64,000 nucleotides of DNA from a virus: IMG/VR virus record IMGVR_UViG_3300022916_000005, one strand, 5' to 3'. The notes below the pieces were generated by a model that saw nothing but the letters and a program-made list of their open reading frames with translations, was not told where the DNA came from and did no database searches. Position 1 is the stretch's first letter. Each line of letters opens with the position of its first letter. This document shows, piece after piece, positions 3,102 through 35,243 of this stretch. The translations under genes and the position numbers were made by a program.

Positions 3102-3189
3102 GGTCAAAGGTGAGGACAGCACTGGCCAGTGTTTTTCTCTTTCCTCGTAAGAGGAATTACTCACACTTGATTTGCTACACAACGAGGAA
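3102..3189 (+). promoter_or_regulatory. Structured 5' leader of the GIY-YIG gene, candidate translational switch
   Basis: Outer stem 3104-3114/3160-3170; palindrome CACTGGCCAGTG at 3120-3131; GTAA-capped hairpin at 3141-3156; 3141-3148 is also complementary to the RBS region 3182-3189. Confidence 0.5.
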
Positions 3190-3195
3190 CAAACA

Positions 3196-4140
3196 ATGAC
3201 AAACAAAACAAGTGGTATCTATCAAATTAAAAACATAAAGAATGGGAAGATGTATATAGGACAATCCACTTGCATTAAAGAAAGGTGGGAAGTTCATCGA
3301 AAACTTTTGAATAGAAATCGACATACAAATCTTCATTTGCAAATGGAATATGATCGTTATGGTGAAAAGTCGTATGAGTATTCTGTTTGCGAGTTGGTTG
3401 AAGAGGAAAGACTTGACGAGCGGGAGATTTATTGGATATCTCGTCTCGATACTTTTCTGGATTGTGATAAGGGCTATAACAAATCCTGCGGAGGAGAAGG
3501 GGTAGGAAAAGGAGAAAATCATCCTTGTGCAAGGTTTGACAAAATGGCGATTGTCGAAATTAGGAAAGAATACAAAGACAACTCAGAATTGTTAATTAGA
3601 GACATTTGCCGAAAACGCAAAGTAGACGAGATGACAATTGGGAGAATCATTAGAAACAAAACATATTTTGATAAAGATTATATTCCACCAACAAAAGAAG
3701 AAATAAACAAAAAGAAAAGTAACAATGCCGCTGTCCGAATGATTGGGGATAAAAATCCTAATTTTGGAAAGTATGGAGAGGCAAACTCTAATTTTGGAAA
3801 GTATGGGGTAGATTCTCCAAATGCTGTTTTTACTAATGCTCAAATTGTTGAAATTAGAAAAAAATACAACGATAATGTGTCTCTAATTAGACTTGCCAGC
3901 ATGTATGATGTAAGTGATTCGACAATTGGAGCGATTGTAAGAAATGAAAGATATGTGGATGATAATTATCATCCACCAGAGAAGAATGTTATAAGGGTTA
4001 AAGTGACATGGGAACTTGTTGAAAAGATTCGAGAGAGATTTAATAAAGATAGTCCAACTCAAGTTTCGTTAGCAAGAGAATTCAAAGTTTCAGTTTCTTG
4101 CATTAACAACATTGTTCGAAACAAAACTTGGGTTATTTGA
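3196..4140 (+). CDS. GIY-YIG homing endonuclease with repeated HTH-like DNA-binding modules
   Basis: SGIYQIKN...MYIGQS; three IVEIRK...I..IVRN repeats; ATG at 3196 with GAGGA RBS. Confidence 0.9.
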   Translation: MTNKTSGIYQIKNIKNGKMYIGQSTCIKERWEVHRKLLNRNRHTNLHLQMEYDRYGEKSYEYSVCELVEEERLDEREIYWISRLDTFLDCDKGYNKSCGGEGVGKGENHPCARFDKMAIVEIRKEYKDNSELLIRDICRKRKVDEMTIGRIIRNKTYFDKDYIPPTKEEINKKKSNNAAVRMIGDKNPNFGKYGEANSNFGKYGVDSPNAVFTNAQIVEIRKKYNDNVSLIRLASMYDVSDSTIGAIVRNERYVDDNYHPPEKNVIRVKVTWELVEKIRERFNKDSPTQVSLAREFKVSVSCINNIVRNKTWVI

Positions 4141-5375: not shown

Positions 5376-5596
5376 AAAGAAGATGCAAAGCAAACGACAT
5401 TATAGTTACAAAGTGGCCAAACGAAGAGAGTGAAAAGAGATTTTTCAGAGTCGTTACTACAGATAAACCTTGGAAATCAACATTCCCAACAATAGAATTG
5501 GAAGTGTTGAGTGGTCCAATGAGGGGCGAGTCAGTTTGGGTATATGAAAAGACATTTGAAGGAGAATTTATAAATGAAGAGGAAGATAATGAATAA
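5372..5596 (+). CDS. Small hypothetical protein
   Basis: ATGA-coupled ORF. Confidence 0.55.
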   Translation: MKRRCKANDIIVTKWPNEESEKRFFRVVTTDKPWKSTFPTIELEVLSGPMRGESVWVYEKTFEGEFINEEEDNE

Positions 5597-6887
5597 AAAC
5601 AAAGGGTTACGGATCTTGCATTTATCAGATTTGCACGTACAAAATCTAAAGTACCAAGAAGAATACAAGACAATCTTTGAGGAACTTTACAAGAAAGTAA
5701 AGGTACTAGATCCTGACGGGATCGTTATTACTGGAGACATCTTCCACTCAAAGACCCCATCTTCAGAAGCTTACGACATGGTGTCTAAGTTATTGAAGTC
5801 ATTGGCAGATATTAAGAAGACATATGTTCTATGTGGTAATCACGATATGAATGTGCGTAATAAAGATCGTCTTGATAGCATTACTCCTGTTGTAGATACG
5901 TTACAACATCCTAATATTGAATATCTTAAGTATTCAAGTATTCACCATATTAAGGATAATTTCTATTTTAATGTTCTTTCTCTTTTTGATGAGGACAATT
6001 GGGTTCCTTCCCCAAAGGATGATGGTAATGTCTACATTTCTCTCTATCACGGAGTTGTATCTGGAAGTCAGACAGAGTTTGGGTATAAATTTGAAAAGGG
6101 ACAGATTGATGACAATATTTTGTATTCAAGTACTTTTGGACTGCTGGGAGATATTCACCTACGTCAAGCATTAGGTGGCAGTGATCGTTTTTGGATGGCA
6201 GGGTCTCTAATTGCGACAAACTTCGGAGAGACAGAAGATAAAGGATTTCTTGTATGGGATATTGAAGATAAGGATGAATACAATATTGAATTTGTCAAAC
6301 TTAATAATCCTCATCCATTTATTAATGTTAAGGCAGAAGAACTTGATGATAAGATTGATTCTTTAAGAAGTGCAAGAGTAAGATTGATCACTGAACAAGT
6401 CTTGACCAAGGAAGAAGAAAGAAATATCAAGTTTAAAATTAATCAACAGTATCCTTATAGTATTAAGTTCCATACGAAGGTGAAAAAGTTAGCAGAAGAT
6501 GTAATGTCAACATCTGATGGTTTAACTGGGGATGTCCGTATTCAATCTGTGCAGGAACGATTGTTTGAAGAATTTGTAGGAGATGCACTTGATGAACGAG
6601 AGTTAAAGGAACTATTAGAATTAAACAAACAATATTCAGCCTTACTAGAACAAGAAGAAACAGCAAGAGGAACGACTTGGAAGGTGAAGACTTTAGAGTG
6701 GGATAATCTATTCAACTATGGAGAAGGGAACAAGATCGACTTCGAGAAATTGCAAGGCAATATTGTAGGAATATTGGGGAACAATTATAGTGGAAAGTGT
6801 GTGGATAAAAAAACCGAAATCGAAATAGAATTTGATGAAGAAGAAATTATAAATAAATTAGGATTCCTTCCAGATGAATTGAGTTAA
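5589..6887 (+). CDS. SbcD/Mre11/gp47-like nuclease fused to the SbcC N-terminal lobe and the N-fragment of a split intein
   Basis: Metallophosphoesterase motifs SDLH, TGDIFH, GNHD, GDIH; then KVKTLEWDNLFNYG...GILGNNYSGK (SbcC up to the Walker A Lys); then intein block A. Confidence 0.9.
   Translation: MNKNKGLRILHLSDLHVQNLKYQEEYKTIFEELYKKVKVLDPDGIVITGDIFHSKTPSSEAYDMVSKLLKSLADIKKTYVLCGNHDMNVRNKDRLDSITPVVDTLQHPNIEYLKYSSIHHIKDNFYFNVLSLFDEDNWVPSPKDDGNVYISLYHGVVSGSQTEFGYKFEKGQIDDNILYSSTFGLLGDIHLRQALGGSDRFWMAGSLIATNFGETEDKGFLVWDIEDKDEYNIEFVKLNNPHPFINVKAEELDDKIDSLRSARVRLITEQVLTKEEERNIKFKINQQYPYSIKFHTKVKKLAEDVMSTSDGLTGDVRIQSVQERLFEEFVGDALDERELKELLELNKQYSALLEQEETARGTTWKVKTLEWDNLFNYGEGNKIDFEKLQGNIVGILGNNYSGKCVDKKTEIEIEFDEEEIINKLGFLPDELS
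6798..6884 (+). mobile_element. Split intein N-fragment (29 aa)
   Basis: CVDKKTEIEIEF... begins immediately after Walker A GK and ends at the stop codon. Confidence 0.85.
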
Positions 6888-6916
6888 TTCTTAAATAAAG
6901 TTTTCCCAGAGTAGTT

Positions 6917-6924
6917 ACTACTTA
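6917..6924 (+). promoter_or_regulatory. Putative late promoter variant ACTACTTA within a hairpin
   Basis: Motif variant 19 nt upstream of the endonuclease ATG; TTTCCC/GGGAAA arms cover the RBS. Confidence 0.45.
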
Positions 6925-6942
6925 ATAATGGGGGAAAGTAAT

Positions 6943-8103
6943 ATGAAAAAAATATGTAAAACGTGTAAAGAGGAAAAGAGTAAGGAAGATTTTCCTCTTC
7001 ATGGCTATGTTAGAAAAAGTGATGGAGCTTCTTCTCGTCGTTCTGTTTGTAAAGAATGTTACAAAATTGTTGTAGCAAAAAATCATGTTAAAAAATACAA
7101 ACAAAAGAACAAACATGACAGAGATTTGGTTAGGTGCGAAATTTGTGGATATGAGGCAACATTATTAACGTCTCATATTCACTTTAAACACAAAATCAGT
7201 ATGGAGGAGTATAAGAAAAAATATAATACACCCATTTCATCTCCCTTTACACAAGAAATGAAAGATAATAGGAAAGAAACATCACCAACTTCAAAATTGT
7301 ATTGGATTAAAAAAGGATATACAGAAGAAGAGGCTGTCTCGATAGTTTCAAAAAGACAATCCACCTTTTCTTTGGAGAAGTGTGTTGAAAGAGATGGGGA
7401 AAAGAATGGAAGAAAAAGATGGGAAGAGAGACAAGAGTTATGGCAAAAATCTCTATTGAACAATACAGAAGAGTTTATTGATGATATGAATGAAAGAAAG
7501 AACCCTTGGAAGGAGGAGTTTTGGGAAAGGGACAGTTGGAAGGAGGATTACGCATCGAGAGTAAAAAAGGGTAACGGAGTTGTTCCTAAATTGCTTCTTG
7601 AATGTTTTGATGTTAAAGATTTGATTAAAATGCTGCCAACCATAGTTACTTACGAAAAATTAAGACAATATTTAAAGATAAAAGGGCTTCGAATAGCATT
7701 TAAAATTACAGAACAAAATGAAGAACACATATACAGAGAGATGATGAAAGAGTATTCTTTCGAACTTCCAAAAAATAGTAAGTCATTTGGACAAAAGTGT
7801 TATTATAATGGGATTATGTTTCGCTCTCTCGGGGAGGCAGAAATTGCGAAGTTTTTGGACAAAGAAGGAGTTTATTTTCTGTACGAGAGACGATATCCAA
7901 TAAAAGAAACAAGGTATTTGTATGATTTTTATTTGCCAAAATACGACTTGTATGTTGAGTATTATGGCCTTTCTTTGTACGGACCTTATAAGGAAAGGAT
8001 GGAAAAGAAAAAGAAAGAATTATTAGACAACAATATAAAATGTGTGTTTTCGGATGATGTGGAAAAATTAAAAGAATATTTAAAAGAGGAAATAAATGAA
8101 TAA
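6943..8103 (+). CDS. Free-standing homing endonuclease (Zn fingers plus PD-(D/E)XK/Vsr-like domain) between the split-intein halves
   Basis: CKTC..CKEC; C2H2 CEIC...H...H; C-terminal FRSLGEAEIA...YDFYLPKYDLYVEYYG. Confidence 0.8.
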   Translation: MKKICKTCKEEKSKEDFPLHGYVRKSDGASSRRSVCKECYKIVVAKNHVKKYKQKNKHDRDLVRCEICGYEATLLTSHIHFKHKISMEEYKKKYNTPISSPFTQEMKDNRKETSPTSKLYWIKKGYTEEEAVSIVSKRQSTFSLEKCVERDGEKNGRKRWEERQELWQKSLLNNTEEFIDDMNERKNPWKEEFWERDSWKEDYASRVKKGNGVVPKLLLECFDVKDLIKMLPTIVTYEKLRQYLKIKGLRIAFKITEQNEEHIYREMMKEYSFELPKNSKSFGQKCYYNGIMFRSLGEAEIAKFLDKEGVYFLYERRYPIKETRYLYDFYLPKYDLYVEYYGLSLYGPYKERMEKKKKELLDNNIKCVFSDDVEKLKEYLKEEINE

Positions 8104-8467
8104 AAAAATTACAATGGAAAAGTATTATGATTTTTTTAATAAATATGGGGATTGCAATGTAAAAGTGAGCACTCCTTATGGATTTAGAAAAATTGAAGCA
8201 ATTGCGATCACTGCCTTTGATAGTCAAGTTATGGAAGTAAGAACGAAAGAAGGGTTAAAATTAAAAACATCCCCAGACCACTTAATCAAATTAGCAAACG
8301 GAACCTTCACTAAGACAAAGACTTTGAATCCAGGAGATGACATTCAAACTGTAAATGGTTTAGATAAAGTTTCTGTTATTGTCACTCTTCCTTATAGAGA
8401 TGATTTGTACGATCTGCAAGTTGAAGAAGTTAAGCAATACTATTCTAATGGGATTGTTTCTCATAAC
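8096..8467 (+). mobile_element. Split intein C-fragment (124 aa)
   Basis: STPYGF; block B KTSPDH; block F DLYDLQV; block G YYSNGIVSHN followed by +1 Ser. Confidence 0.9.
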
Positions 8468-10372
8468 TCTTCTGCAATCTTATCTTTAATGTATACAATG
8501 TATAACACCACCATTAAGAAGGATAAGACATCAAGAATTATCAATGACAATAAAGACAACGCCTATGGCAAGGTTGTTATCGAGTCGGGTGGTGAAGATT
8601 ATGTAATTGAACGTTCTTGTGAAAGGGCAAAAGGAGAGGATTCAAAAACAACACTAGAGTTCTATAAGTTATTGGATGATGGTAGTCACTTTAGTTTAAA
8701 CGGAACATCAAGAGTAGAGACAGACAAAAATATCAAAAGAGTATTTGGTACGATTGATGACTTTTTATTGACAGCTTTGAGTGGACAGAAGAAGGCAGAA
8801 CAATTCCTTGAACAAGGTATGACAGAAAGGAAGAAGACGTTGGCAAAGTTTCTTGATCTTGAATCGTTTGATGTCAAACACAAGCTGGCAAAGAAGGATA
8901 GTGCAGAACTAAAAGGACAACTGAAAAGAAATGTTGATAGAGACTTTGAAGAAGAAAAGGAAACTTTAGAAGATGATATTGAAGACATCTTGGAGGAAAG
9001 GGCAGAACAAGAAGAGAAACTTTCAGAAGTAATTTCAAATCAAGATAGTGTTGTGCAAAAAATTGCAAATATTGCTGCAGAATTAAACCTTAAACCTATC
9101 AAGGATATTAATATTGAAGATGTAGTTTCTCAAATTGATAGATTATCTTACAAAATTAAAGATAATGTTGAAGAAATTGTCAAATTAGAAGAGGAACTTG
9201 GGAAGATGATCTCCAAGAACACCCAGGCACAAAAAATGCTTGATGGATTTAGTGATACGAATTATGAGGAACAATTAGAATATCACAATAAAAGACAGAG
9301 AGCGATTACAGATTTGAAGAAGACAATCGCGTTTGAAGAAAGAGTTCTCAAAGAACAAGAGAAGAAGACGAATATTCTTGATGAAGTACCTTGTGCGAGT
9401 AAATATGGGACTTGCCCATTCTTACAAGATGGATTTGAGGCCAAAAGTTGTCTCCCTAATAAGGAGGCAGAGATTGAGGCACTAATCAAAGAGAAAGAGA
9501 TCGAAGAGGATGCCAATGCCAAGTTTGATGTAGGACATGTTGAGAGAAAAATTGAACAACACAATAAACTTATCCAATATTGCCAAACAGCAAAAGATAA
9601 GATTACATCAATGACGTTTGAGAAGGAAAGAAAAGGAATCGATCTTAAGAGAAACAAGAACAATCTTCAAGAGCAGAAAGATAAAGAAGCAGAATACAAT
9701 AAGAGCAAGAAGGCGCAAGAAGATAAGGAAGAGAATAAGAAAAAGTTAGTAATATCAAAGAAATTGTTGAAAGAAATTAAAATATCAGTAACTTCAATAC
9801 AGGACACTATTAGTTCGTATAATAAGAAGATTGGGTATCTCGAACAATCAATTGAGCAAATTTGCAAAGAAGAAAAAGAAAGAAGTGTTTTAGAGAAAGA
9901 GTACAAGATTTATGAAATGTTCATTAAGGCTACTCATAGTAGCGGGATTGCGAGCAGCATTGTTGGAGAGAAGTTGCCATTCATTAATAGAATTATTGAA
10001 AGCATCTTGAAAGATCTTGTAGATTTTAAAGTTTATTTTGATAAGAAGTACAACATCTTTATCGAACACGAAGGTCAAAAGCCAAGAATGATTGAGATGG
10101 GTTCTGGAGCAGAGACATCGTTGGCATCATTTGCAATTCGTGTTGCATTAAGTGCAGCGAGTAATCTGCCTTTGGGCAATCTTTTGATCTTAGATGAGCC
10201 CGCGACCGATCTTGACGGAGAACATTTGGAGAGTTATATTGAAAATCTAAATGTATTAAAGAACTATTATGATGTCATTATTCTTATTTCTCATCTCGAC
10301 GTTGTAAAAGATGCTGTTGATGTAACTTTAGACATTGAACAAAAAGAGGGTTTTGTAACTATTTATTCTTGA
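8096..10372 (+). CDS. Split intein C-fragment fused to the rest of the SbcC/Rad50/gp46-like ATPase
   Basis: After VSHN come SSAILSLMY, a long coiled coil, signature GSGAE, Walker B LLILDEP and H-loop ISH. Confidence 0.9.
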   Translation: MNKKITMEKYYDFFNKYGDCNVKVSTPYGFRKIEAIAITAFDSQVMEVRTKEGLKLKTSPDHLIKLANGTFTKTKTLNPGDDIQTVNGLDKVSVIVTLPYRDDLYDLQVEEVKQYYSNGIVSHNSSAILSLMYTMYNTTIKKDKTSRIINDNKDNAYGKVVIESGGEDYVIERSCERAKGEDSKTTLEFYKLLDDGSHFSLNGTSRVETDKNIKRVFGTIDDFLLTALSGQKKAEQFLEQGMTERKKTLAKFLDLESFDVKHKLAKKDSAELKGQLKRNVDRDFEEEKETLEDDIEDILEERAEQEEKLSEVISNQDSVVQKIANIAAELNLKPIKDINIEDVVSQIDRLSYKIKDNVEEIVKLEEELGKMISKNTQAQKMLDGFSDTNYEEQLEYHNKRQRAITDLKKTIAFEERVLKEQEKKTNILDEVPCASKYGTCPFLQDGFEAKSCLPNKEAEIEALIKEKEIEEDANAKFDVGHVERKIEQHNKLIQYCQTAKDKITSMTFEKERKGIDLKRNKNNLQEQKDKEAEYNKSKKAQEDKEENKKKLVISKKLLKEIKISVTSIQDTISSYNKKIGYLEQSIEQICKEEKERSVLEKEYKIYEMFIKATHSSGIASSIVGEKLPFINRIIESILKDLVDFKVYFDKKYNIFIEHEGQKPRMIEMGSGAETSLASFAIRVALSAASNLPLGNLLILDEPATDLDGEHLESYIENLNVLKNYYDVIILISHLDVVKDAVDVTLDIEQKEGFVTIYS
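10358..10365 (+). promoter_or_regulatory. Putative late promoter ACTATTTA
   Basis: Recurring motif upstream of the holin-like gene. Confidence 0.55.
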
Positions 10373-10388
10373 ATAAGGAGAACAGATC

Positions 10389-10577
10389 ATGGAAGAAGAT
10401 AAGGCAGGAGCAGTTGATTCTTTTTTAAAGAAGATTATGTCTCGTAAATTGATGGTATGGTTAACGACTACGGGCTTATTGTTTGGATCGGTTATTACCG
10501 GAGAACAGTGGCTTACTGTTTCTATGATCTACATTGGCACGCAAGGGCTAATGGACATCGTTGCTAAAAGAAAGTAA
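10389..10577 (+). CDS. Putative holin
   Basis: 62 aa; SRKL followed by two hydrophobic segments and a basic C-terminus. Confidence 0.55.
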   Translation: MEEDKAGAVDSFLKKIMSRKLMVWLTTTGLLFGSVITGEQWLTVSMIYIGTQGLMDIVAKRK

Positions 10578-10598
10578 AACACAAAAGGAAATAAAAAC

Positions 10599-10823
10599 AT
10601 GGACAAAGAAACGATCAGAGAAGTTATTAAAGAAGAGTTTGATAGGCTAGATAGGAGTTTAAATCTCGATCCTCTTGAAGACCCAAAACAATCGTGGGAA
10701 GATTATAAAGGTCGTAGGAAGAATAAGGGTGGTGAGTTTTTCAAATTACTCACCCTTCTTGACAAACTTCAAAAAGAACAAGAGTCAGTCATTAAACAAC
10801 TTAAACTTATGAGAATGGAGTAA
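10599..10823 (+). CDS. Hypothetical protein, possible internal head protein
   Basis: N-terminal TIREVIKEE motif. Confidence 0.55.
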   Translation: MDKETIREVIKEEFDRLDRSLNLDPLEDPKQSWEDYKGRRKNKGGEFFKLLTLLDKLQKEQESVIKQLKLMRME

Positions 10824-11643: not shown

Positions 11644-12615
11644 ATGGAAGTTTGTAAGATTTGTGACAAAGAGATAAATACGAATAGAGGGTTAGCGATT
11701 CATATAAAAAGAATTCATAACCTTTCAAGCGAGGAGTATTATAATAAATATGTACAAACAGATCCAAATGAAGGGAAGTGTTTAAGTTGTGGCAAAAAGA
11801 CAACTTTCGAAGGAAGAGAAGTCATTAAATATCGAGAGTTTTGTTCAACAAAATGTTCCCACAGTTTCGAGAGAACAAAAGAAAGAAAAAAGAAAGTATA
11901 TTTAGAAAGATATGGTGTAGAAAACATTTCTCAATTGGAATCAACCAAGAAGCAAAAAGAAGAAGCTTATCTAAGAAAGTATGGAGTTAAAACTCCCTTG
12001 TCAGATAAGGACAAAATGAAAAGGGCAATTCAAGATAAATATGGAGAAGAATATACGAACATTTCACAAGTTCCCAAGATAAGAGAAAAAATTAAAAATG
12101 TAGTATTGGAAAGGCACGGTGTAGAAAACGTATCCCAATTAGAGTCGGTCAAGAAAAGGAAAGAAGAAACGACATTAGAACATTATGGAGTACGTCATCA
12201 TATGCATATTCCAGAAATTCAACAAAAGGTTTCTACAAATTCTTCTACTGCTTATAAATTGTTAGAATATAAAACAAAGTTTGGAGATTTAATTCATTAT
12301 CAGTCAACATTTGAATTGAGCTATATCAAACAGTGCGAAGAAGATGGTATCAAAATTGTTGATGGTGATGATGTTTCTTACACATTTGGAAACGAAGAGA
12401 GAAGATATTATGTAGATTTTAAGATTTTTGATGAGAATGATAAGCCACAATTAATCGAAATTAAAGGTACTCATAAATGGTATTGGAAAGATTTGAAAAG
12501 TGGATTGTTGAGTGCTAAAAACAAAGCTGCACAAGAGTTTTCAAGTACAAATGGCTATTCCCCATTTAAGATGATCTTGAACGGAAATGTGGCAGATTTA
12601 GAGGAGATATTATAA
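11644..12615 (+). CDS. Putative homing endonuclease (C2H2 Zn finger, YGVEN repeats, TnsA-like PD-(D/E)XK domain)
   Basis: CKIC...H...H; repeated ERYGVENISQ; YQSTFE...YYVDF...LIEIKG. Confidence 0.8.
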   Translation: MEVCKICDKEINTNRGLAIHIKRIHNLSSEEYYNKYVQTDPNEGKCLSCGKKTTFEGREVIKYREFCSTKCSHSFERTKERKKKVYLERYGVENISQLESTKKQKEEAYLRKYGVKTPLSDKDKMKRAIQDKYGEEYTNISQVPKIREKIKNVVLERHGVENVSQLESVKKRKEETTLEHYGVRHHMHIPEIQQKVSTNSSTAYKLLEYKTKFGDLIHYQSTFELSYIKQCEEDGIKIVDGDDVSYTFGNEERRYYVDFKIFDENDKPQLIEIKGTHKWYWKDLKSGLLSAKNKAAQEFSSTNGYSPFKMILNGNVADLEEIL

Positions 12616-17682: not shown

Positions 17683-20600
17683 ATGAAAGGTCTTAAAAAT
17701 CCAAACCCAAGAAATCCAGATACAAAATTATATAAGAACTTAACAAGATTACTATCAGGACCATTGGTAGTATATCGAAGTCAACTACCAGTACAAGGGA
17801 AGAGAAGATTCCTTGACAAGTACGGTTCAAAGTTCCGCTCTGCCAGTGGGCAGCAATTTAAAAGATCACAACACAATCCATTCGATCACCTAAATGCAAA
17901 CATGATTGCTAACCAAGTCAGGTCAGAAAGATACATTGACTTTGACCAGATGGAATACGAGCCAATTATTAACTGTATTACGAAAGATTCAGTCATAAAC
18001 ACCCCTTCTGGGGACTTCACAATAGAACGGTTGTTGGAGATGTACCCAAATGGGGAAAACTTCTCTGTGTACGCTTATGACGAATCTAAAGGATGCTTGA
18101 CGGTCGGAAATGCTCATAGCGTTCGTTATACAAAGACAGATCAAGTCTACAAGGTTACATTGGATTCTGGGGAAAGTATTCGGTGTACTAGTGATCACAA
18201 GTTTTTAACAAGAGACGGTAATTGGGTAGAGGCAAAAGATTTGAAAGAGGAACAACCTCTTATGCCATTTTATCGCAAATATGTAAAACGAGACAAGGGA
18301 TATCCTTCTGTTTATACAATTAATGATGGTTGGCAGAGAGAATATCGTTTTGTTGCTGAGAAGACAATTCTTGGAAGAAAGCTTGGAGAATACCCTGTCG
18401 AAGTTGTTCATCACGTCGATCACAACAAGAGCAATAGCAATCCTGATAATCTGCAAGTCGTTTCTGCCAAAGAACATGCAGCAATTCATGGAAGAGACTG
18501 GTACGAGTTCTTCGAGGAAGAAAGAAGAAATAAAATTAGAGATGCCGTTTCAAAAGCTAATAAGGGAAAGGCAGCTTGGAACAAAAATCTAATTGGATGG
18601 TTAGAACACACTCCAGAAGCAAGAAGAAAGATCTCAAAAAAAATGAAGGCAATTTGGGAAGTTGCAACTAAAGAAGAAAAGGAGAAGATGCTTTTCGGGA
18701 TGAGAAAGTGGATGAAGTCTGATATTGGGAAAGAAGTGATGTCTCAAAGAAGGACAAAAATGAACTTGGAAATGTGGAAGGATGAAGAGTTTGTTGAAAG
18801 AGCTTCAGAGAGAAGTTCAAAACACATGAAAGATTTGTGGGACAATGAAGACTGGGCTATCTGGAAGAAGGAACACCATTCAGAAGTGATGAAAAAAAAG
18901 TATCAAGAGGATCCAGAGTATTATAAAAAGAGCGTTAATTATGGAGATAAGAATGGGAGATTTAATAAAGCAATTAATACCGAATTCATTTTAACTTCTG
19001 GAGCGCAGTATGAGGATTTTGAAGATTTCTTAAAAGACGTGGATCTTGGAGAATTTAAAACTAAGGCACGGAAGCGTCAATTTGTTTTAAGAAGGTTGAT
19101 GACGAAAGGATTTGATAGTTGGAAAGATTATAAAGAAAATTATGTTTATGAAAATCATAAAGTAGTTTCTGTTGAAAAGATGGGCATCGAAGATGTGTAT
19201 GATCTTACAACCGATGTATATCACAACTTCGCGTGTAGCGGAGTCATTATTCATAACAGCGCCTTGGACATGTATGCAGACGAGATTACAACATCATCTG
19301 CATTGAGAAAGATGTTGACAATTAACTCAAGTAATGGAGAGATCAAATCAATTCTTCAAGCATTATATTATGATGTATTAAATGTAGACTTTAACCTATA
19401 TCAATGGGCAAGAGCATTTTGTAAGTATGGTGATTTTTTCTTATATTTGGATATCGATGAAGACATTGGTATTCAATCTGTAATTGGTTTACCATCATCT
19501 GAGATTGAAAGGCTGGAGGGAGAAGACAAAACAAACCCAAGTTATATCCAATACCAATGGAATAGTGCAGGGATGACGTTTGAAAATTGGCAGATTGCTC
19601 ACTTCCGCAATGTTGGAAATGAAAAGTTTGTGCCCTACGGGTCCAGTGTTTTGGAAGGAGCAAGAAGAATCTGGAGACAAGTAATCCTTCTTGAGGATGC
19701 AATGATGGCATATCGTATTGTACGATCACCAGAAAGAAAGGCATTTTATATTGATGTTGGGAACATTCCCCCACAAGAAACTGAGCAGTTTGTTCAAAAG
19801 ACGATTACAGAGATGAAGAGAAACCAATTGATTGACTCTAGCACTGGGAGAGTAGACTTAAGATACAATCCATTTTCGATTGAAGAAGATTACTTCATCC
19901 CTGTTAGAGGTGGAACTTCACAAACTCGTATTGAATCAATTCCTGGTGGACAATATACTGGAGATATTGATGATGTAAAATATCTTAAAGACAAGTTGTT
20001 TGCAGCACTTAAAGTTCCTCAATCGTACTTGTTCCGAGGAGAAGGAGCAGAAGAAGACAAGACAACATTAGCACAAAAAGATATTAGATTTAGTAGAACA
20101 ATTCAAAGACTGCAAAGAGCAATCATTTCAGAGTTGGAAAAAATTGGTATCATTCACTTATACACTTTGGGGTACAGAGGATCAGACCTGATCTCTTTTA
20201 CTTTATCTTTGAATAATCCATCAAAGATTGCAGAACTACAAGAGCTTGAATATTGGAGAACAAAGTTCGACGTAGCTTCTGCAGCAGTAGAAGGATATTT
20301 CAGCAAGCGATGGATTTCCGAGCATCTATTTGGAATGTCTGATGAAGAGTTCTTACGAAACCAAAGAGAGATGTTCTATGACCGCAAATTTGAGGCAGCT
20401 TTGGCAGTTGCTGCAGAAGATGAGGGCGAAGGTGATGGTGGTCTCGAAGACTTTGGTGGAGGTGGAGGAGCATTTGGTGGTGGATTTGAAGATGAAGAAG
20501 GTATGGGAGGAGAGGCAGAGTTAGAAGATCTCGAAGGTGGGGAAGATATGGACGAGCTACCACTTGATGATGGTGGTGGAGATGGTGGAGATGAAGATGT

Positions 20601-20940
20601 CTTGTTAGCAGCCCCTGCAAAGAGAGATGATGACGAGGGATATGTAACTCCTGGCAGTAAGGGTAAAAAGTACAAACCAGTTGCTTCTGATAAGCGGAGT
20701 ATGGGAGCACGCAAACGTCACATGAAGGGGCAGTATGCGTCAGAGTTGGGAAGTAATACCCCAAGAAATACTCACAAAGGATATGGAGATCTCAAGTCTC
20801 TATCGAAGGGAATCTTTGAGCAAGAAGAAAGAAAACTAATGCAGACACAGAGGGAAATCGAATTCCTTGTTGAAAGTCTAAAGACAAAAGAATCTTCAGT
20901 TATTACAGAAAATGTAGCAAAAGCTGTAGGAGAAAAGTAA
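17683..20940 (+). CDS. Portal protein (T4 gp20-like) containing an intein
   Basis: LLEDAMMAYRIVRSPERKAFYIDVGN, EEDYFIPVRG, ALKVP; acidic Gly-rich tail. Confidence 0.95.
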   Translation: MKGLKNPNPRNPDTKLYKNLTRLLSGPLVVYRSQLPVQGKRRFLDKYGSKFRSASGQQFKRSQHNPFDHLNANMIANQVRSERYIDFDQMEYEPIINCITKDSVINTPSGDFTIERLLEMYPNGENFSVYAYDESKGCLTVGNAHSVRYTKTDQVYKVTLDSGESIRCTSDHKFLTRDGNWVEAKDLKEEQPLMPFYRKYVKRDKGYPSVYTINDGWQREYRFVAEKTILGRKLGEYPVEVVHHVDHNKSNSNPDNLQVVSAKEHAAIHGRDWYEFFEEERRNKIRDAVSKANKGKAAWNKNLIGWLEHTPEARRKISKKMKAIWEVATKEEKEKMLFGMRKWMKSDIGKEVMSQRRTKMNLEMWKDEEFVERASERSSKHMKDLWDNEDWAIWKKEHHSEVMKKKYQEDPEYYKKSVNYGDKNGRFNKAINTEFILTSGAQYEDFEDFLKDVDLGEFKTKARKRQFVLRRLMTKGFDSWKDYKENYVYENHKVVSVEKMGIEDVYDLTTDVYHNFACSGVIIHNSALDMYADEITTSSALRKMLTINSSNGEIKSILQALYYDVLNVDFNLYQWARAFCKYGDFFLYLDIDEDIGIQSVIGLPSSEIERLEGEDKTNPSYIQYQWNSAGMTFENWQIAHFRNVGNEKFVPYGSSVLEGARRIWRQVILLEDAMMAYRIVRSPERKAFYIDVGNIPPQETEQFVQKTITEMKRNQLIDSSTGRVDLRYNPFSIEEDYFIPVRGGTSQTRIESIPGGQYTGDIDDVKYLKDKLFAALKVPQSYLFRGEGAEEDKTTLAQKDIRFSRTIQRLQRAIISELEKIGIIHLYTLGYRGSDLISFTLSLNNPSKIAELQELEYWRTKFDVASAAVEGYFSKRWISEHLFGMSDEEFLRNQREMFYDRKFEAALAVAAEDEGEGDGGLEDFGGGGGAFGGGFEDEEGMGGEAELEDLEGGEDMDELPLDDGGGDGGDEDVLLAAPAKRDDDEGYVTPGSKGKKYKPVASDKRSMGARKRHMKGQYASELGSNTPRNTHKGYGDLKSLSKGIFEQEERKLMQTQREIEFLVESLKTKESSVITENVAKAVGEK
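17974..19257 (+). mobile_element. Cis intein with HNH homing endonuclease (428 aa)
   Basis: N|CITKDS...CTSDH...VVHHVDHNKSN..N...DVYDLT..HNF...IIHN|S. Confidence 0.93.
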
Positions 20941-33713: not shown

Positions 33714-35243
33714 ATGGAGACATGTTTAATTTGTGGAAAGGAAAAGAAAAGTAAAAGAGCATTGGCAACTCATCTTCAAATGGTTCACCACTTGAAATCA
33801 AAGGATTATACAATTCAATATATCTTAAAGGGAGAGCAACCAAAATGTTTGCTATGTAACAATGAGCCTCGTTATGTATCTTTTGAATTTAAACAATATT
33901 GCAAAGAACACAAGAACATTGCAGAAACAAAAGGAGGAAAGAGGGGAGGAAGAGGAGCGAAACTTTCTCTTGACGTTTTCGAAGAAAGATTAAAGGAATA
34001 TTGTTCTTTAAGAAATGTAGAAGATTTGAACAATAGGTATGAGGATTATATTAGCCAGAACGAAAAGAACATTAAAGTAAAATGTAACAAGTGCGAAGAG
34101 GAATTGACGACATCTTTAAATTATCTAAGAGATCATAGTTCAATATGCGGGAATTGTAGAGATCGTTCTACGTCTGAAGAGACAAAAGGCAAAATTTCAA
34201 ACACCTTAACGATGAAGAAGGAAGTATTTGAAAAAAGAGTACTGAATAAGTGCGACACGTTTAAAGTTTTAACAAAATATGAAGAATATGGCTCAAGAAA
34301 ATTACAAAAGAAACTGAAAGTAGAATGTGCAAAGTGTGGAGATATTACTAAAAGAACGCTACAACAACTTGACGAAGGGACTTTATGTTGGAAGTGTAAT
34401 CCGTCTTCAAAGCCGGAGAACGAAGTTGCCGAATGGGTAGAATCTCTTGGACTCGATGTTGTAAGAAACAGCAGAAAGATCATTGCTCCAAAAGAGATTG
34501 ATATTTACATTCCATCAAAAAAGGTTGCCATCGAATATAACGGATTGTATTGGCATAGTGAATTAAATAAAGAGAAATCATACCATTCAGATAAATCAAA
34601 GGCTTGCAAGGATAAGGGCATCTTTCTATTCCACGTGTTTTCAGATGATTGGGAACAGAAGCAAGATGTTGTTAAATCAATGATCAAAAACAAGTTAGGA
34701 CTTAACAAGACAAAGGTTGCAGCAAGAAAGTGCAAGATCATCGAGCAAGAGAAAAACAAACTAATGGATAAGTTTTTTAATGATAATCATTTATTAGGGC
34801 ATGTTCAAGCAACTAAAGGATTTTTCTTGGAATATAACGATCAGGTTGTTGCAGGAATTACGCTAAGAAAGCCTGCACACAGAAAATATAAAGGATCAGT
34901 TGAGGTTGCAAGGTTCACAACAAAGATCGATACAACAGTCCAAGGTGGATTTTCAAAACTTCTCAAGGCAGCAATCAAATGGGCAAAGGACAATGGTTAT
35001 GAAAAAGTTATTACATATGCAGACTTGTCTCACGGCAATGGCAATGTATATGAGAAGAACGGATTTACATTCCTAAACGAAACAAAGTTAAGTTATTGGT
35101 ATACCGATGGCATCTCACGCTACAATAGATTCAAATTCAGAGCACAAGATGGCAAAACAGAGAAACAAGTTGCAGAAGATAATGGTGTATTCAAGATCTT
35201 TGGTTGTGGGAATAATTTGTATGAACTGCCACTTTCTCCTTGA
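33714..35243 (+). CDS. Hef-like homing endonuclease (Zn fingers, Vsr-like nuclease, GNAT/Mom-like C-terminal domain)
   Basis: EIDIYIPSKKVAIEYNGLYWHS; EVARF..GGFSKLL..TYADLSHGNGNVYEKNGF. Confidence 0.8.
   Translation: METCLICGKEKKSKRALATHLQMVHHLKSKDYTIQYILKGEQPKCLLCNNEPRYVSFEFKQYCKEHKNIAETKGGKRGGRGAKLSLDVFEERLKEYCSLRNVEDLNNRYEDYISQNEKNIKVKCNKCEEELTTSLNYLRDHSSICGNCRDRSTSEETKGKISNTLTMKKEVFEKRVLNKCDTFKVLTKYEEYGSRKLQKKLKVECAKCGDITKRTLQQLDEGTLCWKCNPSSKPENEVAEWVESLGLDVVRNSRKIIAPKEIDIYIPSKKVAIEYNGLYWHSELNKEKSYHSDKSKACKDKGIFLFHVFSDDWEQKQDVVKSMIKNKLGLNKTKVAARKCKIIEQEKNKLMDKFFNDNHLLGHVQATKGFFLEYNDQVVAGITLRKPAHRKYKGSVEVARFTTKIDTTVQGGFSKLLKAAIKWAKDNGYEKVITYADLSHGNGNVYEKNGFTFLNETKLSYWYTDGISRYNRFKFRAQDGKTEKQVAEDNGVFKIFGCGNNLYELPLSP

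What the first reader, a model, noticed from the sequence alone, without database searches (positions are those of the whole stretch)
5589..10372. SbcCD gene fractured in Walker A by an atypically split intein, with a homing endonuclease between the halves
Seen: ORF 5589-6887 ends GILGNNYSGK|CVDKKTEIEIEFDEEEIINKLGFLPDELS*. ORF 8096-10372 begins with 124 aa carrying intein blocks B (TSPDH), F (DLYDLQV) and G (SHN), followed by |SSAILSLMY. Joining the exteins restores the P-loop GNNYSGKS. A Zn-finger/PD-(D/E)XK endonuclease lies between the halves. IntN is only 29 aa and strongly acidic (10 D/E versus 3 K). Known: phage fractured genes with split inteins exist (gp41, NrdJ, IMPDH), and short-IntN types are rare (for example TerL). 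Inference: the ATPase can only be built by protein trans-splicing. I do not recall a short-IntN split intein in a Rad50/gp46 host. It is also a candidate ligation tool, since the IntN is short enough to synthesise.
Basis: partly seen in the sequence, partly recalled or inferred. Interest (0 to 1): 0.92.

Follow-up and report, generated by a model that had tools for sequence, protein, structure and literature searches.

The report
Lopsided split intein in phage SbcCD
A marine phage encodes its fused SbcD-SbcC (Mre11-Rad50-type) DNA-repair enzyme as two genes cut inside the ATP-binding loop; a split intein with a 29-residue first half most likely stitches the two proteins together, which is a new host protein for a known kind of element, and one that looks common in uncultured phages.

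Summary
ORF 5589-6887 ends GILGNNYSGK|C plus 28 more residues. ORF 8096-10372 starts with 124 intein residues ending VSHN|SS. A 386/391-aa endonuclease gene lies between them.

- About 1050-aa intein-less homologues read GKNxSGKSS across the junction.
- Three homologues (P0104, L006, L012) carry a contiguous 152-158-aa mini-intein at exactly this site, collinear with IntN plus IntC.
- The nearest solved structure is VidaL, the known atypically split intein.
- All splicing residues are present: Cys1, block B His, terminal HN, Ser+1.
- Independent marine metagenome contigs reproduce the arrangement, and no RNA family matches.

New details:
- The break lies between strand beta2 and helix alpha1, as in VidaL. 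IntN is a 12-residue core plus a conserved 17-residue helical tail, which one related mini-intein (L025) lacks.
- In other phages the same gap holds a GIY-YIG gene, a gene with an EDxHD-type motif, or no endonuclease gene.
- The endonuclease has a Ros/MucR-type zinc finger and a PD-(D/E)XK-fold domain.

Splicing itself is untested. I found no paper describing an intein in SbcC/Rad50. Earlier notes of this scan report the same 29+124 intein in other phage genomes. Verdict: a real new member of a known kind, of moderate interest.

The parts
5589..6797 (+). N-extein. It holds a complete SbcD/Mre11-type metallophosphoesterase domain plus the first part of the SbcC/Rad50 head, ending at the Walker A lysine (GILGNNYSGK). 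An alternative start lies at 5574.
   Evidence: Pfam Metallophos 6.2e-12. phrog_100 SbcD-like 1.1e-29. TIGR00619 sbcd 4.6e-15, below its cut-off. The last 36 residues are 74-77% identical to intein-less homologues P0003, P0025 and P0007. GAGGA lies 7 nt before the ATG at 5589.
6798..6884 (+). IntN, 29 aa. Cys1 and strands beta1-beta2 form the 12-aa core (6798-6833). A 17-aa acidic helical tail, DEEEIINKLGFLPDELS, follows (6834-6884). The stop codon is at 6885-6887.
   Evidence: Searches give the sequence. IntN is 69-76% identical to the IntN of L007, L008, L009, L013 and L012. It is collinear with the N-terminus of the contiguous inteins in P0104, L006 and L012. In the L012 model the strand is at 7-11 and helices at 14-21 and 26-29. 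Net charge is -7.
6928..8103 (+). Free-standing homing-endonuclease gene, 391 aa from ATG 6928 or 386 aa from ATG 6943. It has N-terminal Cys clusters and a Ros/MucR-type zinc finger (about 7084-7290), helical repeats of the YWIKKGYTEEEA type, and a C-terminal PD-(D/E)XK-fold nuclease domain (about 7795-8100).
   Evidence: Pfam ROS_MUCR scores 25.4 bits, at its cut-off. PDB Ros 2jsp gives E 0.055. The nuclease domain has 889 relatives. The family profile hits T7 endonuclease I at E 1.2e-7 and I-Bth0305I at E 0.011. Phage_endo_I matches 6 of 23 members. The AF2 model has pLDDT 87.9. VIA-align gives Z 8.6 to I-Bth0305I, 8.0 to TnsA and 7.4 to Vsr. The protein is 33-34% identical to the gene in the same position in L008.
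8085..8103 (+). Junction of the endonuclease gene and the C-half. AGAGGA (8085-8090) lies 5 nt before the IntC start codon ATG at 8096. The two ORFs overlap by 8 nt, since the endonuclease stop TAA is at 8101-8103.
   Evidence: Read directly. Translational coupling is an inference.
8096..8467 (+). IntC, 124 aa. It contains helix alpha1 (ITMEKYYDFFNKYG), block B (TSPDH), block F (DLYDLQV) and block G (GIVSHN).
   Evidence: Pfam Intein_splicing 3.3e-10. PDB VidaL 6vgv gives E 8.8e-8 over residues 3-124. All family-invariant positions are kept (S59, H62, D103-D106, S122, H123, N124).
8468..10372 (+). C-extein. It starts with the Ser+1 of Walker A (SSAILSLMY...) and holds the rest of the SbcC/Rad50 head, the coiled coil with a Cys hook, the signature motif SGAE, Walker B LLILDEP and the H-loop SH.
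   Evidence: phrog_77 SbcC-like 3.8e-33. SbcC_Walker_B gives E 0.0012. The piece is 31-37% identical over 84% of its length to more than 100 fused SbcD-SbcC proteins.

Best explanation
The phage's fused SbcD-SbcC (Mre11-Rad50-type) gene is a fractured gene. A class-1 mini-intein of the VidaL family sits between the Lys and Ser of the Walker A motif. The intein's own coding sequence is broken after residue 29 by a free-standing homing-endonuclease gene.

Three proteins are made:
- the N-extein with IntN (432 aa from the start at 5589, 437 aa from 5574)
- the endonuclease
- IntC with the C-extein (758 aa)

Inferred mechanism: the acidic 29-residue IntN docks into the nearly complete Hint fold of IntC. 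IntN consists of the beta1-beta2 core plus a conserved 17-residue helical tail. Cys1 then forms the thioester, Ser+1 attacks it, and Asn124 cyclises. The result is a roughly 1040-aa SbcDC with a restored GNNYSGKSS P-loop, and the two intein pieces are released. Without splicing the P-loop backbone is interrupted, so the ATPase should be dead.

The endonuclease gene is a selfish passenger. It has a Ros-type zinc finger and a PD-(D/E)XK-fold nuclease. Its 3' end carries the ribosome-binding site for the C-half and overlaps that ORF's start codon. It presumably spreads the fractured allele by cutting endonuclease-free alleles during co-infection.

Shown here: the anatomy, the homology, residue conservation, the fold of a contiguous homologue, and recurrence in other phages. 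Inferred: splicing activity, the role of the tail, homing, and translational coupling.
For: Anatomy.

Intein identity:
- Pfam Intein_splicing 40.4 bits against a 35.8 cut-off.
- TIGR01443 passes its cut-off.
- VidaL 6vgv gives E 8.8e-8.

Host continuity:
- More than 100 intein-less homologues of about 1050 aa read GKNxSGKSS.
- Flanking exteins are 74-77% identical to them.

Same-site contiguous inteins collinear with IntN plus IntC: P0104, and L006 and L012.

Fold: the AF2 model of the L012 intein has pLDDT 94.9. Its best Foldseek hits are VidaL (E 1.2e-10, TM 0.79/0.85), NrdJ-1 and gp41-1.

Split site: IntC aligns from its residue 3 with VidaL chain residue 24, and VidaL is reported as split right after beta2 (PMC13014065).

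Catalytic residues are invariant across five split alleles.

Recurrence:
- Split with an intervening ORF in L008, L009-11, L013 and L022.
- Split without one in L007 and L014.
- All SbcC-hosted pairs listed except L022 (31 aa, different tail) have a 29-aa IntN.

Not an artefact: 10 runs hold the stretch fully. A 19,982-nt contig with 4 SNPs spans it, and another contig of 44,361 nt with no differences, which may be the source assembly, also does. There are no joints.

No RNA family matches 5400-10600.

Endonuclease.
Against: No experiment or proteome shows the spliced product.

The 3D model is of a contiguous homologue (L012; IntN 76% and IntC 49% identical).

Charge complementarity is weak here: IntN is -7 but IntC only +1.

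The endonuclease lacks the Lys of the canonical ExK motif and also lacks the EDxHD His/Asp. Its activity is therefore uncertain.

No RNA run was listed, so expression is unknown.
Confidence: 0.85

Rival explanations
1. The intein halves are only an association module, or are decaying remnants. The two SbcDC pieces would work as a non-covalent complex, or not at all, without peptide-bond formation. Phage Aeh1 NrdA is a precedent: its gene was split by an endonuclease gene and the pieces reassemble without an intein.
For: Fragmented phage enzymes that reassemble without splicing are known (PMC3045599, listed). Dassa et al. describe an SbcD-like gene fractured by a Vsr-like endonuclease gene with no intein (PMC2677866). 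No splicing data exist for this locus.
Against: Cys1, the block B His, the penultimate His, the terminal Asn and Ser+1 are all retained. They are invariant among alleles whose exteins are only about 30-37% identical. The break falls between the Lys and Ser of the P-loop, which must be contiguous to bind nucleotide; this rests on established knowledge of Walker A. Contiguous relatives at the same site must splice in cis to be functional.
Confidence: 0.08
2. The interruption is removed at the RNA or translation level, by a group I or II intron carrying the endonuclease gene or by ribosomal bypass. The protein would then be made in one piece.
For: Endonuclease genes often sit in phage group I introns, and the I-Bth0305I family does so in recA (PMC2677866; PMC3239194, listed).
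Against: No Rfam family matches 5400-10600 on either strand at E up to 1. The flanks of the interruption are the two parts of a Hint domain, with their own stop codon, ribosome-binding site and start codon. Alleles without any endonuclease gene are still two ORFs, separated by a 162-nt gap in L007. The spacer hairpin is no better than shuffled sequence, z = -0.35.
Confidence: 0.02
3. The arrangement is an assembly artefact, or the gene is an inactivated pseudogene in a defective phage.
For: The record is a metagenome-assembled viral contig estimated at 59% complete.
Against: Contigs from separate runs and studies span the whole locus, one of them with 4 SNPs, so from a different population. 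The identical protein cluster was seen on 6 contigs. All three ORFs are intact, and the same architecture recurs in divergent phages.
Confidence: 0.02

Closest known systems
VidaL intein (naturally atypically split; PDB 6vgv/6vgw; Burton et al. 2020, known to me here only through PMC13014065)
   Same: It is the best sequence match in the PDB (E 8.8e-8) and the best structural match of the contiguous homologue's model. Both are class 1 and Cys1-dependent. Both are split between beta2 and alpha1, so block B lies in the long C-fragment. By my own recollection, which I could not check, its hosts are phage ATPases (helicase, UvsX).
   Different: VidaL IntN is 16 aa (PMC13014065), while this one is 29 aa because a conserved 17-residue helical tail follows the core. 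The host protein (SbcD-SbcC) and the insertion site differ. Identity is only about 20-25%. This intein uses Ser+1.
AceL-TerL, GOS-TerL and the consensus Cat atypically split inteins of phage large terminases (Thiel 2014; Bachmann and Mootz 2015; summarised in PMC13014065 and PMC11766414)
   Same: They are natural split inteins with IntN of 25-37 aa in phage ATPase genes from metagenomes. IntN length is similar, and Cat hits weakly (6dsl, E 0.0017).
   Different: Those are split after helix alpha1 (the S2 site, per PMC13014065). Here alpha1 is in IntC and the IntN helix is an extra element. The host protein is different.
Fractured genes of Dassa et al. 2009 (PMC2677866): gp41, NrdJ, NrdA, IMPDH, DnaE, ligase, terminase
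   Same: The genomic arrangement is the same: extein-IntN, a free-standing endonuclease gene, then IntC-extein on one strand, in phage DNA-metabolism genes. Alleles lacking the endonuclease gene also exist. The endonuclease's nearest solved fold, I-Bth0305I, represents their Vsr-like family.
   Different: SbcC/Rad50 is not among their hosts; they report only an SbcD-like gene fractured without an intein. The characterised ones that I know of (gp41-1, NrdJ-1) break late in the intein, with a long IntN. Here the break is after residue 29. This endonuclease lacks the EDxHD residues, and by sequence profile it is closer to T7 endonuclease I.
Mre11-Rad50 fusion proteins (Mimivirus R555 and others, PMC3175470)
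   Same: The host gene is a single-chain SbcD-SbcC of about 1050 aa, as are more than 100 metagenomic homologues.
   Different: That paper was only listed here and not read. Nothing I read mentions an intein in such fusions.

Membership tests
Class 1 intein (Hint domain) | Nucleophile (Cys/Ser/Thr) at intein position 1 | tested here: met
   Cys1 (TGT at 6798-6800) directly follows the Walker A Lys.
Class 1 intein (Hint domain) | Block B with a conserved His (TxxH) | tested here: met
   The window reads T-S-P-D-H in IntC. S59 and H62 are invariant in five split alleles and align with VidaL's block B.
Class 1 intein (Hint domain) | Blocks F/G ending in His-Asn, followed by a +1 Ser/Thr/Cys | tested here: met
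   DLYDLQV ... GIVSHN|SS. Pfam Intein_splicing profile positions 121-155 match, and TIGR01443 scores 20.8 against a 15.6 cut-off.
Class 1 intein (Hint domain) | Hint fold | tested here: met
   Shown for the contiguous same-site homologue L012 (pLDDT 94.9; VidaL, NrdJ-1, gp41-1 and RecA inteins all at probability 1.00). For the window's own two-piece complex it is inferred from 76% and 49% identity.
Class 1 intein (Hint domain) | Removal restores a conserved host motif | tested here: met
   GNNYSGK joined to SSAILSL compares with GKNYSGKSSVIDSIL and GKNFSGKSSIIDSLL in intein-less P0025 and P0003.
Class 1 intein (Hint domain) | Protein splicing activity | not testable with these tools
   This needs expression of the halves and detection of the ligated product.
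Naturally atypically split intein (short IntN) | Two separate ORFs, with IntN of a few tens of residues and block B in IntC | tested here: met
   IntN is 29 aa with its own stop. IntC is 124 aa with its own ribosome-binding site and ATG. The reported natural range is 15-37 aa (PMC13014065).
Naturally atypically split intein (short IntN) | Split position relative to secondary structure (S1 after beta2, or S2 after alpha1) | tested here: met
   This is S1-like. The IntC start aligns with VidaL's post-split helix. In the L012 model that helix is residues 41-51, downstream of the break. The tail-less relative L025 goes straight from beta2 to this helix.
Fractured gene (Dassa et al. 2009) | Both halves on one strand with a free-standing endonuclease ORF between the intein parts | tested here: met
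   The same layout is seen in L008 (homologous ORF), L013 (GIY-YIG ORF), and L009 and L022 (ORFs with an EDxHD-type motif).
EDxHD / Vsr-like homing endonucleases (I-Bth0305I) | Restriction-endonuclease-like fold of the catalytic domain | tested here: inconclusive
   It is the best structural hit, but at middling scores: VIA-align Z 8.6, rmsd 2.9 over 88 residues; Foldseek E 0.02; profile E 0.011.
EDxHD / Vsr-like homing endonucleases (I-Bth0305I) | Conserved E-D-x-H-D catalytic residues | tested here: not met
   The window reads VEYYGLSLYGPY where L009, L027 and L028 read EYNGDSYHANP, EFYGDFWHANP and EIDGDYWHANP. No Asp or His is conserved there in the 23-member family alignment.
T7 endonuclease I-like PD-(D/E)XK nucleases (PF05367) | Sequence-profile membership | tested here: inconclusive
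   The family profile hits T7 Endo I at E 1.2e-7. Pfam Phage_endo_I matches 6 of 23 members (best 8.6e-8), but the window's own domain scores 18 bits against a 29.1 cut-off.
T7 endonuclease I-like PD-(D/E)XK nucleases (PF05367) | Catalytic Glu, Asp and Glu-x-Lys | tested here: inconclusive
   E39, D69 (PDF) and E80 are invariant. The position aligned to the T7 Lys in VETKG is Tyr or Phe (IEYxG). A nearly invariant Lys (K97) lies on the next helix.
SbcCD / Mre11-Rad50 (fused form) | Mre11-type phosphoesterase motifs together with Rad50-type Walker A, signature and Walker B motifs on the joined exteins | tested here: met
   Metallophos and SbcD hits. phrog_77 and SbcC_Walker_B hits. The motifs DLH, GDIFH, GNHD, SGAE and LLILDEP are read. 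Full-length fused homologues are listed.

The most novel reading that the evidence does not exclude
The conserved 17-residue helical tail of IntN (DEEEIINKLGFLPDELS) is not a Hint element. It would be an added docking module that made a break after only 12 core residues viable. The gap it borders has become a reusable landing pad, occupied in turn by unrelated endonuclease genes (endonuclease-I-like, an EDxHD-type motif, GIY-YIG) or by none. The tail-bearing contiguous inteins (L012, L006, P0104) would then be natural re-fusions of a once-split intein, meaning that gene fracture is reversible in nature.
Probability: 0.3. Interest if true: 0.6.

Novelty: new member of a known kind. Interest (0 to 1): 0.45.

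Why it matters
For phage biology, it adds the Mre11-Rad50-type recombination nuclease to the short list of enzymes that exist only after protein trans-splicing. It also shows that the site is hit repeatedly in uncultured marine and freshwater phages.

For intein evolution, the related loci form a natural series at one insertion site:
- intein-free
- contiguous without the tail
- contiguous with the tail
- split without an endonuclease gene
- split with one of several kinds of intervening gene

That series lets one test how endonuclease genes break inteins and whether breaks are reversed.

For protein engineering, it is one more natural Cys1/Ser+1 split pair whose IntN (29 aa, perhaps reducible to 12) is within reach of peptide synthesis. 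It is related to, but distinct from, VidaL. Its practical value depends on kinetics that are not known.

Tried and rejected
The contigs of P0002, P0101, P0110, P0111 and P0104 could therefore not be inspected, and IMG/VR loci were used instead.
- blastn of the locus against GenBank phages found nothing. tblastn found only distant hits.
- A single-protein scan of IMG/VR found nothing. The alignment-based scan worked.
- Rfam found no match on 5400-10600.
- The promoter and terminator scan gave counts no higher than shuffled sequence. The hairpin in the 6888-6927 spacer is not better than shuffles. I therefore make no claim about separate temporal control of the halves.
- No RNA holder was listed.
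- NCBIfam had nothing for the endonuclease. PDB phmmer gave only a weak Ros hit. The word-based homologue search on its nuclease domain found 2 proteins, so the exhaustive search was needed. The ESM Atlas gave leads only, with scores under 0.9.
- The primary papers on VidaL, AceL-TerL, GOS-TerL and Cat are not held. Their hosts and split sites are quoted from PMC13014065 and PMC11766414.
- The window's own IntN and IntC could not be folded as one chain, because a joined sequence has no reference.
- The extein tree is the quick version with long branches and is used only as a hint.
- Rejected idea: that the split site equals the TerL-type S2 site, because alpha1 lies in IntC.
- Rejected idea: that the endonuclease is an EDxHD member, because the motif is absent.

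Full report
**1. Observation**

One search lists three consecutive + strand ORFs.

- ORF 5574/5589-6887 ends ...GILGNNYSGK, then 29 residues beginning with Cys (CVDKKTEIEIEF DEEEIINKLGFLPDELS), then a stop.
- ORF 6928-8103 encodes 391 aa.
- ORF 8096-10372 begins with 124 residues carrying TSPDH, DLYDLQV and GIVSHN, followed by SSAILSLMY.

IntN has 10 D/E against 3 K, net charge -7.

The 125-aa N-terminus of the third ORF passes Pfam Intein_splicing (40.4 bits against a 35.8 cut-off). It also passes NCBIfam intein_Cterm.

The first ORF holds a complete SbcD/Mre11 phosphoesterase domain. The third holds the SbcC/Rad50 body. The host is therefore a fused SbcD-SbcC gene.

**2. The host gene is continuous elsewhere**

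The large protein search returned more than 100 fused SbcD-SbcC proteins of about 1050 aa. They are 31-37% identical to the C-half over 84% of it, which is everything except the intein. In these proteins Walker A reads GKNFSGKSS or GKNYSGKSS (P0003 and P0025).

The 36 residues before Cys1 are 74-77% identical to them. Deleting IntN, the endonuclease gene and IntC gives GNNYSGK-SS, an intact P-loop.

**3. The intein is continuous elsewhere, at the same site**

P0104 (1217 aa) and the IMG/VR loci L006 and L012 carry a 152-158-aa mini-intein between the same Lys and Ser. Its sequence is collinear with the window's IntN plus IntC. In P0104, for example...GFLPDELC-RLVT-KKTTIEKIY... spans the point where the window has its stop, the endonuclease gene and its start.

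This is the strongest single argument that the two window pieces are halves of one Hint domain.

An AF2 model of the L012 intein was built on an alignment that included the window's pieces (A2). It has pLDDT 94.9. Its best Foldseek hits are VidaL (E 1.2e-10, TM 0.79/0.85), NrdJ-1 and gp41-1.

By sequence, the window's IntC finds VidaL as the best PDB entry (E 8.8e-8, residues 3-124 against chain residues 24-142).

**4. Where the break lies**

PMC13014065 states two natural positions for atypical splits:

- after strand beta2 (S1: VidaL, PolB16)
- after helix alpha1 (S2: AceL-TerL, GOS-TerL)

It gives the natural IntN range as 15-37 aa.

The window's IntC aligns from its third residue with the helix that follows VidaL's split. 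In the L012 model that helix is residues 41-51, downstream of the break. The strand at 7-11 and two short helices at 14-21 and 26-29 lie upstream.

L025 carries a contiguous mini-intein at the same site of a stand-alone SbcC-like gene. It runs directly from the beta2 strand (TKIKIKI) into this helix and has no tail.

The split is therefore S1-like, and IntN has two parts:

- a 12-residue core
- a 17-residue tail, conserved at 69-76% identity across IntN among SbcC-hosted alleles, higher than for IntC

In relatives hosted by helicase or UvsX-like genes the same core is followed by quite different, longer tails. What the tail does is inferred, not shown.

**5. Is it likely to splice?**

Cys1, the block B His, the block F residues, His-Asn and Ser+1 are all present. 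They are invariant among five split alleles whose exteins have diverged to roughly 30-37% identity.

All host motifs are intact on both halves. The break is between the Lys and Ser of the P-loop, which cannot function with about 150 foreign residues or a chain break between them. That point rests on established knowledge of Walker A motifs.

I therefore rate trans-splicing as the working mechanism at about 0.85. No tool here can show it.

**6. The gene in between**

- N-terminal part: it matches the Ros/MucR zinc finger at Pfam's cut-off and weakly in the PDB.
- C-terminal 127 residues: they have 889 relatives in the exhaustive search.
- Alignment of 23 mostly single-domain members: it shows invariant Glu, PD-F, Glu and Gly, and a nearly invariant Lys.
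- Family profile: it hits T7 endonuclease I (E 1.2e-7) and I-Bth0305I (E 0.011). Pfam Phage_endo_I matches 6 of 23 members.
- AF2 model (pLDDT 87.9): it is nearest to I-Bth0305I (Z 8.6), TnsA, VRR-NUC, Vsr and Bax1. All of these have restriction-endonuclease-like folds, though the scores are middling.

"Zn-finger / PD-(D/E)XK endonuclease" is therefore supported. Membership of the EDxHD family is not, because the Asp and His are absent. The canonical ExK lysine is also replaced.

The protein is 33-34% identical to the gene in the same position in L008. Its last codons contain AGAGGA, 5 nt before the IntC ATG, and its stop overlaps that ORF by 8 nt. This suggests translational coupling of the C-half to the endonuclease gene, which is an inference.

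**7. Rivals**

- RNA-level removal: Rfam finds nothing. Alleles without an endonuclease gene are still two ORFs, with a 162-nt gap in L007; L014 is also split without one.
- Artefact: ten seawater or marine runs hold the stretch fully. A 19,982-nt contig with 4 SNPs spans 5500-10400 without joints. So does a 44,361-nt contig with no differences, which may be the source assembly.
- Non-covalent assembly without splicing: this cannot be excluded, but it fits poorly with conservation of every catalytic residue.

**8. Wider picture**

The alignment-based scan of IMG/VR (parsed) shows the same site in several states.

| State at the SbcC Walker A site | Loci |
|---|---|
| Split, endonuclease-I-like gene | window, L008 |
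| Split, gene with an EDxHD-type motif (read by eye, plus BLAST links to the helicase-locus genes) | L009-11, L022 |
| Split, GIY-YIG gene (Pfam 1.2e-10) | L013 |
| Split, no endonuclease gene | L007, L014 |
| Contiguous with tail | L006, L012 (also protein P0104 from the protein search) |
| Contiguous without tail | L025 |

A quick extein tree places intein-bearing alleles in at least three places among intein-free ones. It nests the contiguous P0104 inside a split clade with support 99. This hints at horizontal spread and at more than one split or re-fusion event. Long branches make it only a hint.

The same intein family is also split in helicase and UvsX-like genes.

**9. Novelty**

The searchable literature yielded no report of an intein, split or not, in SbcC/Rad50/gp46. 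Dassa et al. list eight host types without it, and mention only an intein-less fractured SbcD-like gene. I could not read the VidaL, AceL-TerL, GOS-TerL and Cat primary papers, so a mention there cannot be excluded.

The kind of element is well known: fractured genes since 2009 and natural atypical splits since 2014. The intein is a recognisable relative of VidaL.

Earlier notes of this scan report the same 29+124 intein in the SbcC/gp46 Walker A of other phage genomes, and reached the same reading. I saw them only after my own analysis, and they are unchecked AI notes.

I class the finding as a new member of a known kind, with interest 0.45. The features beyond the ordinary are the IntN tail and the turnover of endonuclease genes at one split site.

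Noticed in passing
window 17683-20940 (intein about 17974-19257): The portal protein (phrog_213, 9.5e-65) carries a contiguous intein with an HNH endonuclease domain. Pfam Intein_splicing hits lie at 18031-18279 and 18868-19257.
   Followed up: partly
L002:808-2757 (same genome, about 66.1-68.1 kb, outside the window): By its motifs, this looks like a DnaB/gp41-type helicase of the same phage. It has a contiguous intein in its own Walker A (GGGK|CQFYDT ... NGILSHN|SMAM). The intein's C-terminal blocks resemble those of the SbcC intein. So one genome would carry a split and a contiguous P-loop intein of similar type.
   Followed up: partly
window 3172-4140, 11644-12615, 33714-35243: Three more free-standing homing-endonuclease genes are present (phrog GIY-YIG-type and HNH-type hits, E 1e-14 to 1e-87). 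The genome is unusually rich in selfish nuclease genes.
   Followed up: no
L062:4998-9161: An SbcD-SbcC allele of 1388 aa has an intact Walker A (APNASGKSS) but about 330 extra residues in the SbcD part. This is probably a different intein near the phosphoesterase motifs.
   Followed up: no
L025:6395-9226: A stand-alone SbcC-like gene has a contiguous mini-intein at the same Walker A site. It lacks the 17-residue IntN tail, so beta2 runs straight into helix alpha1.
   Followed up: partly
L027, L030, L031, L032 (helicase-like), L028 (UvsX/RecA-like), L029 (DnaB-like): The same intein family is split after the same 12-residue core in other P-loop genes, but with quite different and longer IntN tails (about 68-72 aa in the helicase loci). 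In L028 the RecA-like C-extein seems to be interrupted a second time by another endonuclease gene, just after TTPGG.
   Followed up: no
window 9390-9440 (C-extein hook region): The coiled-coil apex reads PCASKYGTCPF, with two Cys eight residues apart, rather than the classic Rad50 CxxC hook. Homologues have PCGSEFSHCQF and similar.
   Followed up: no
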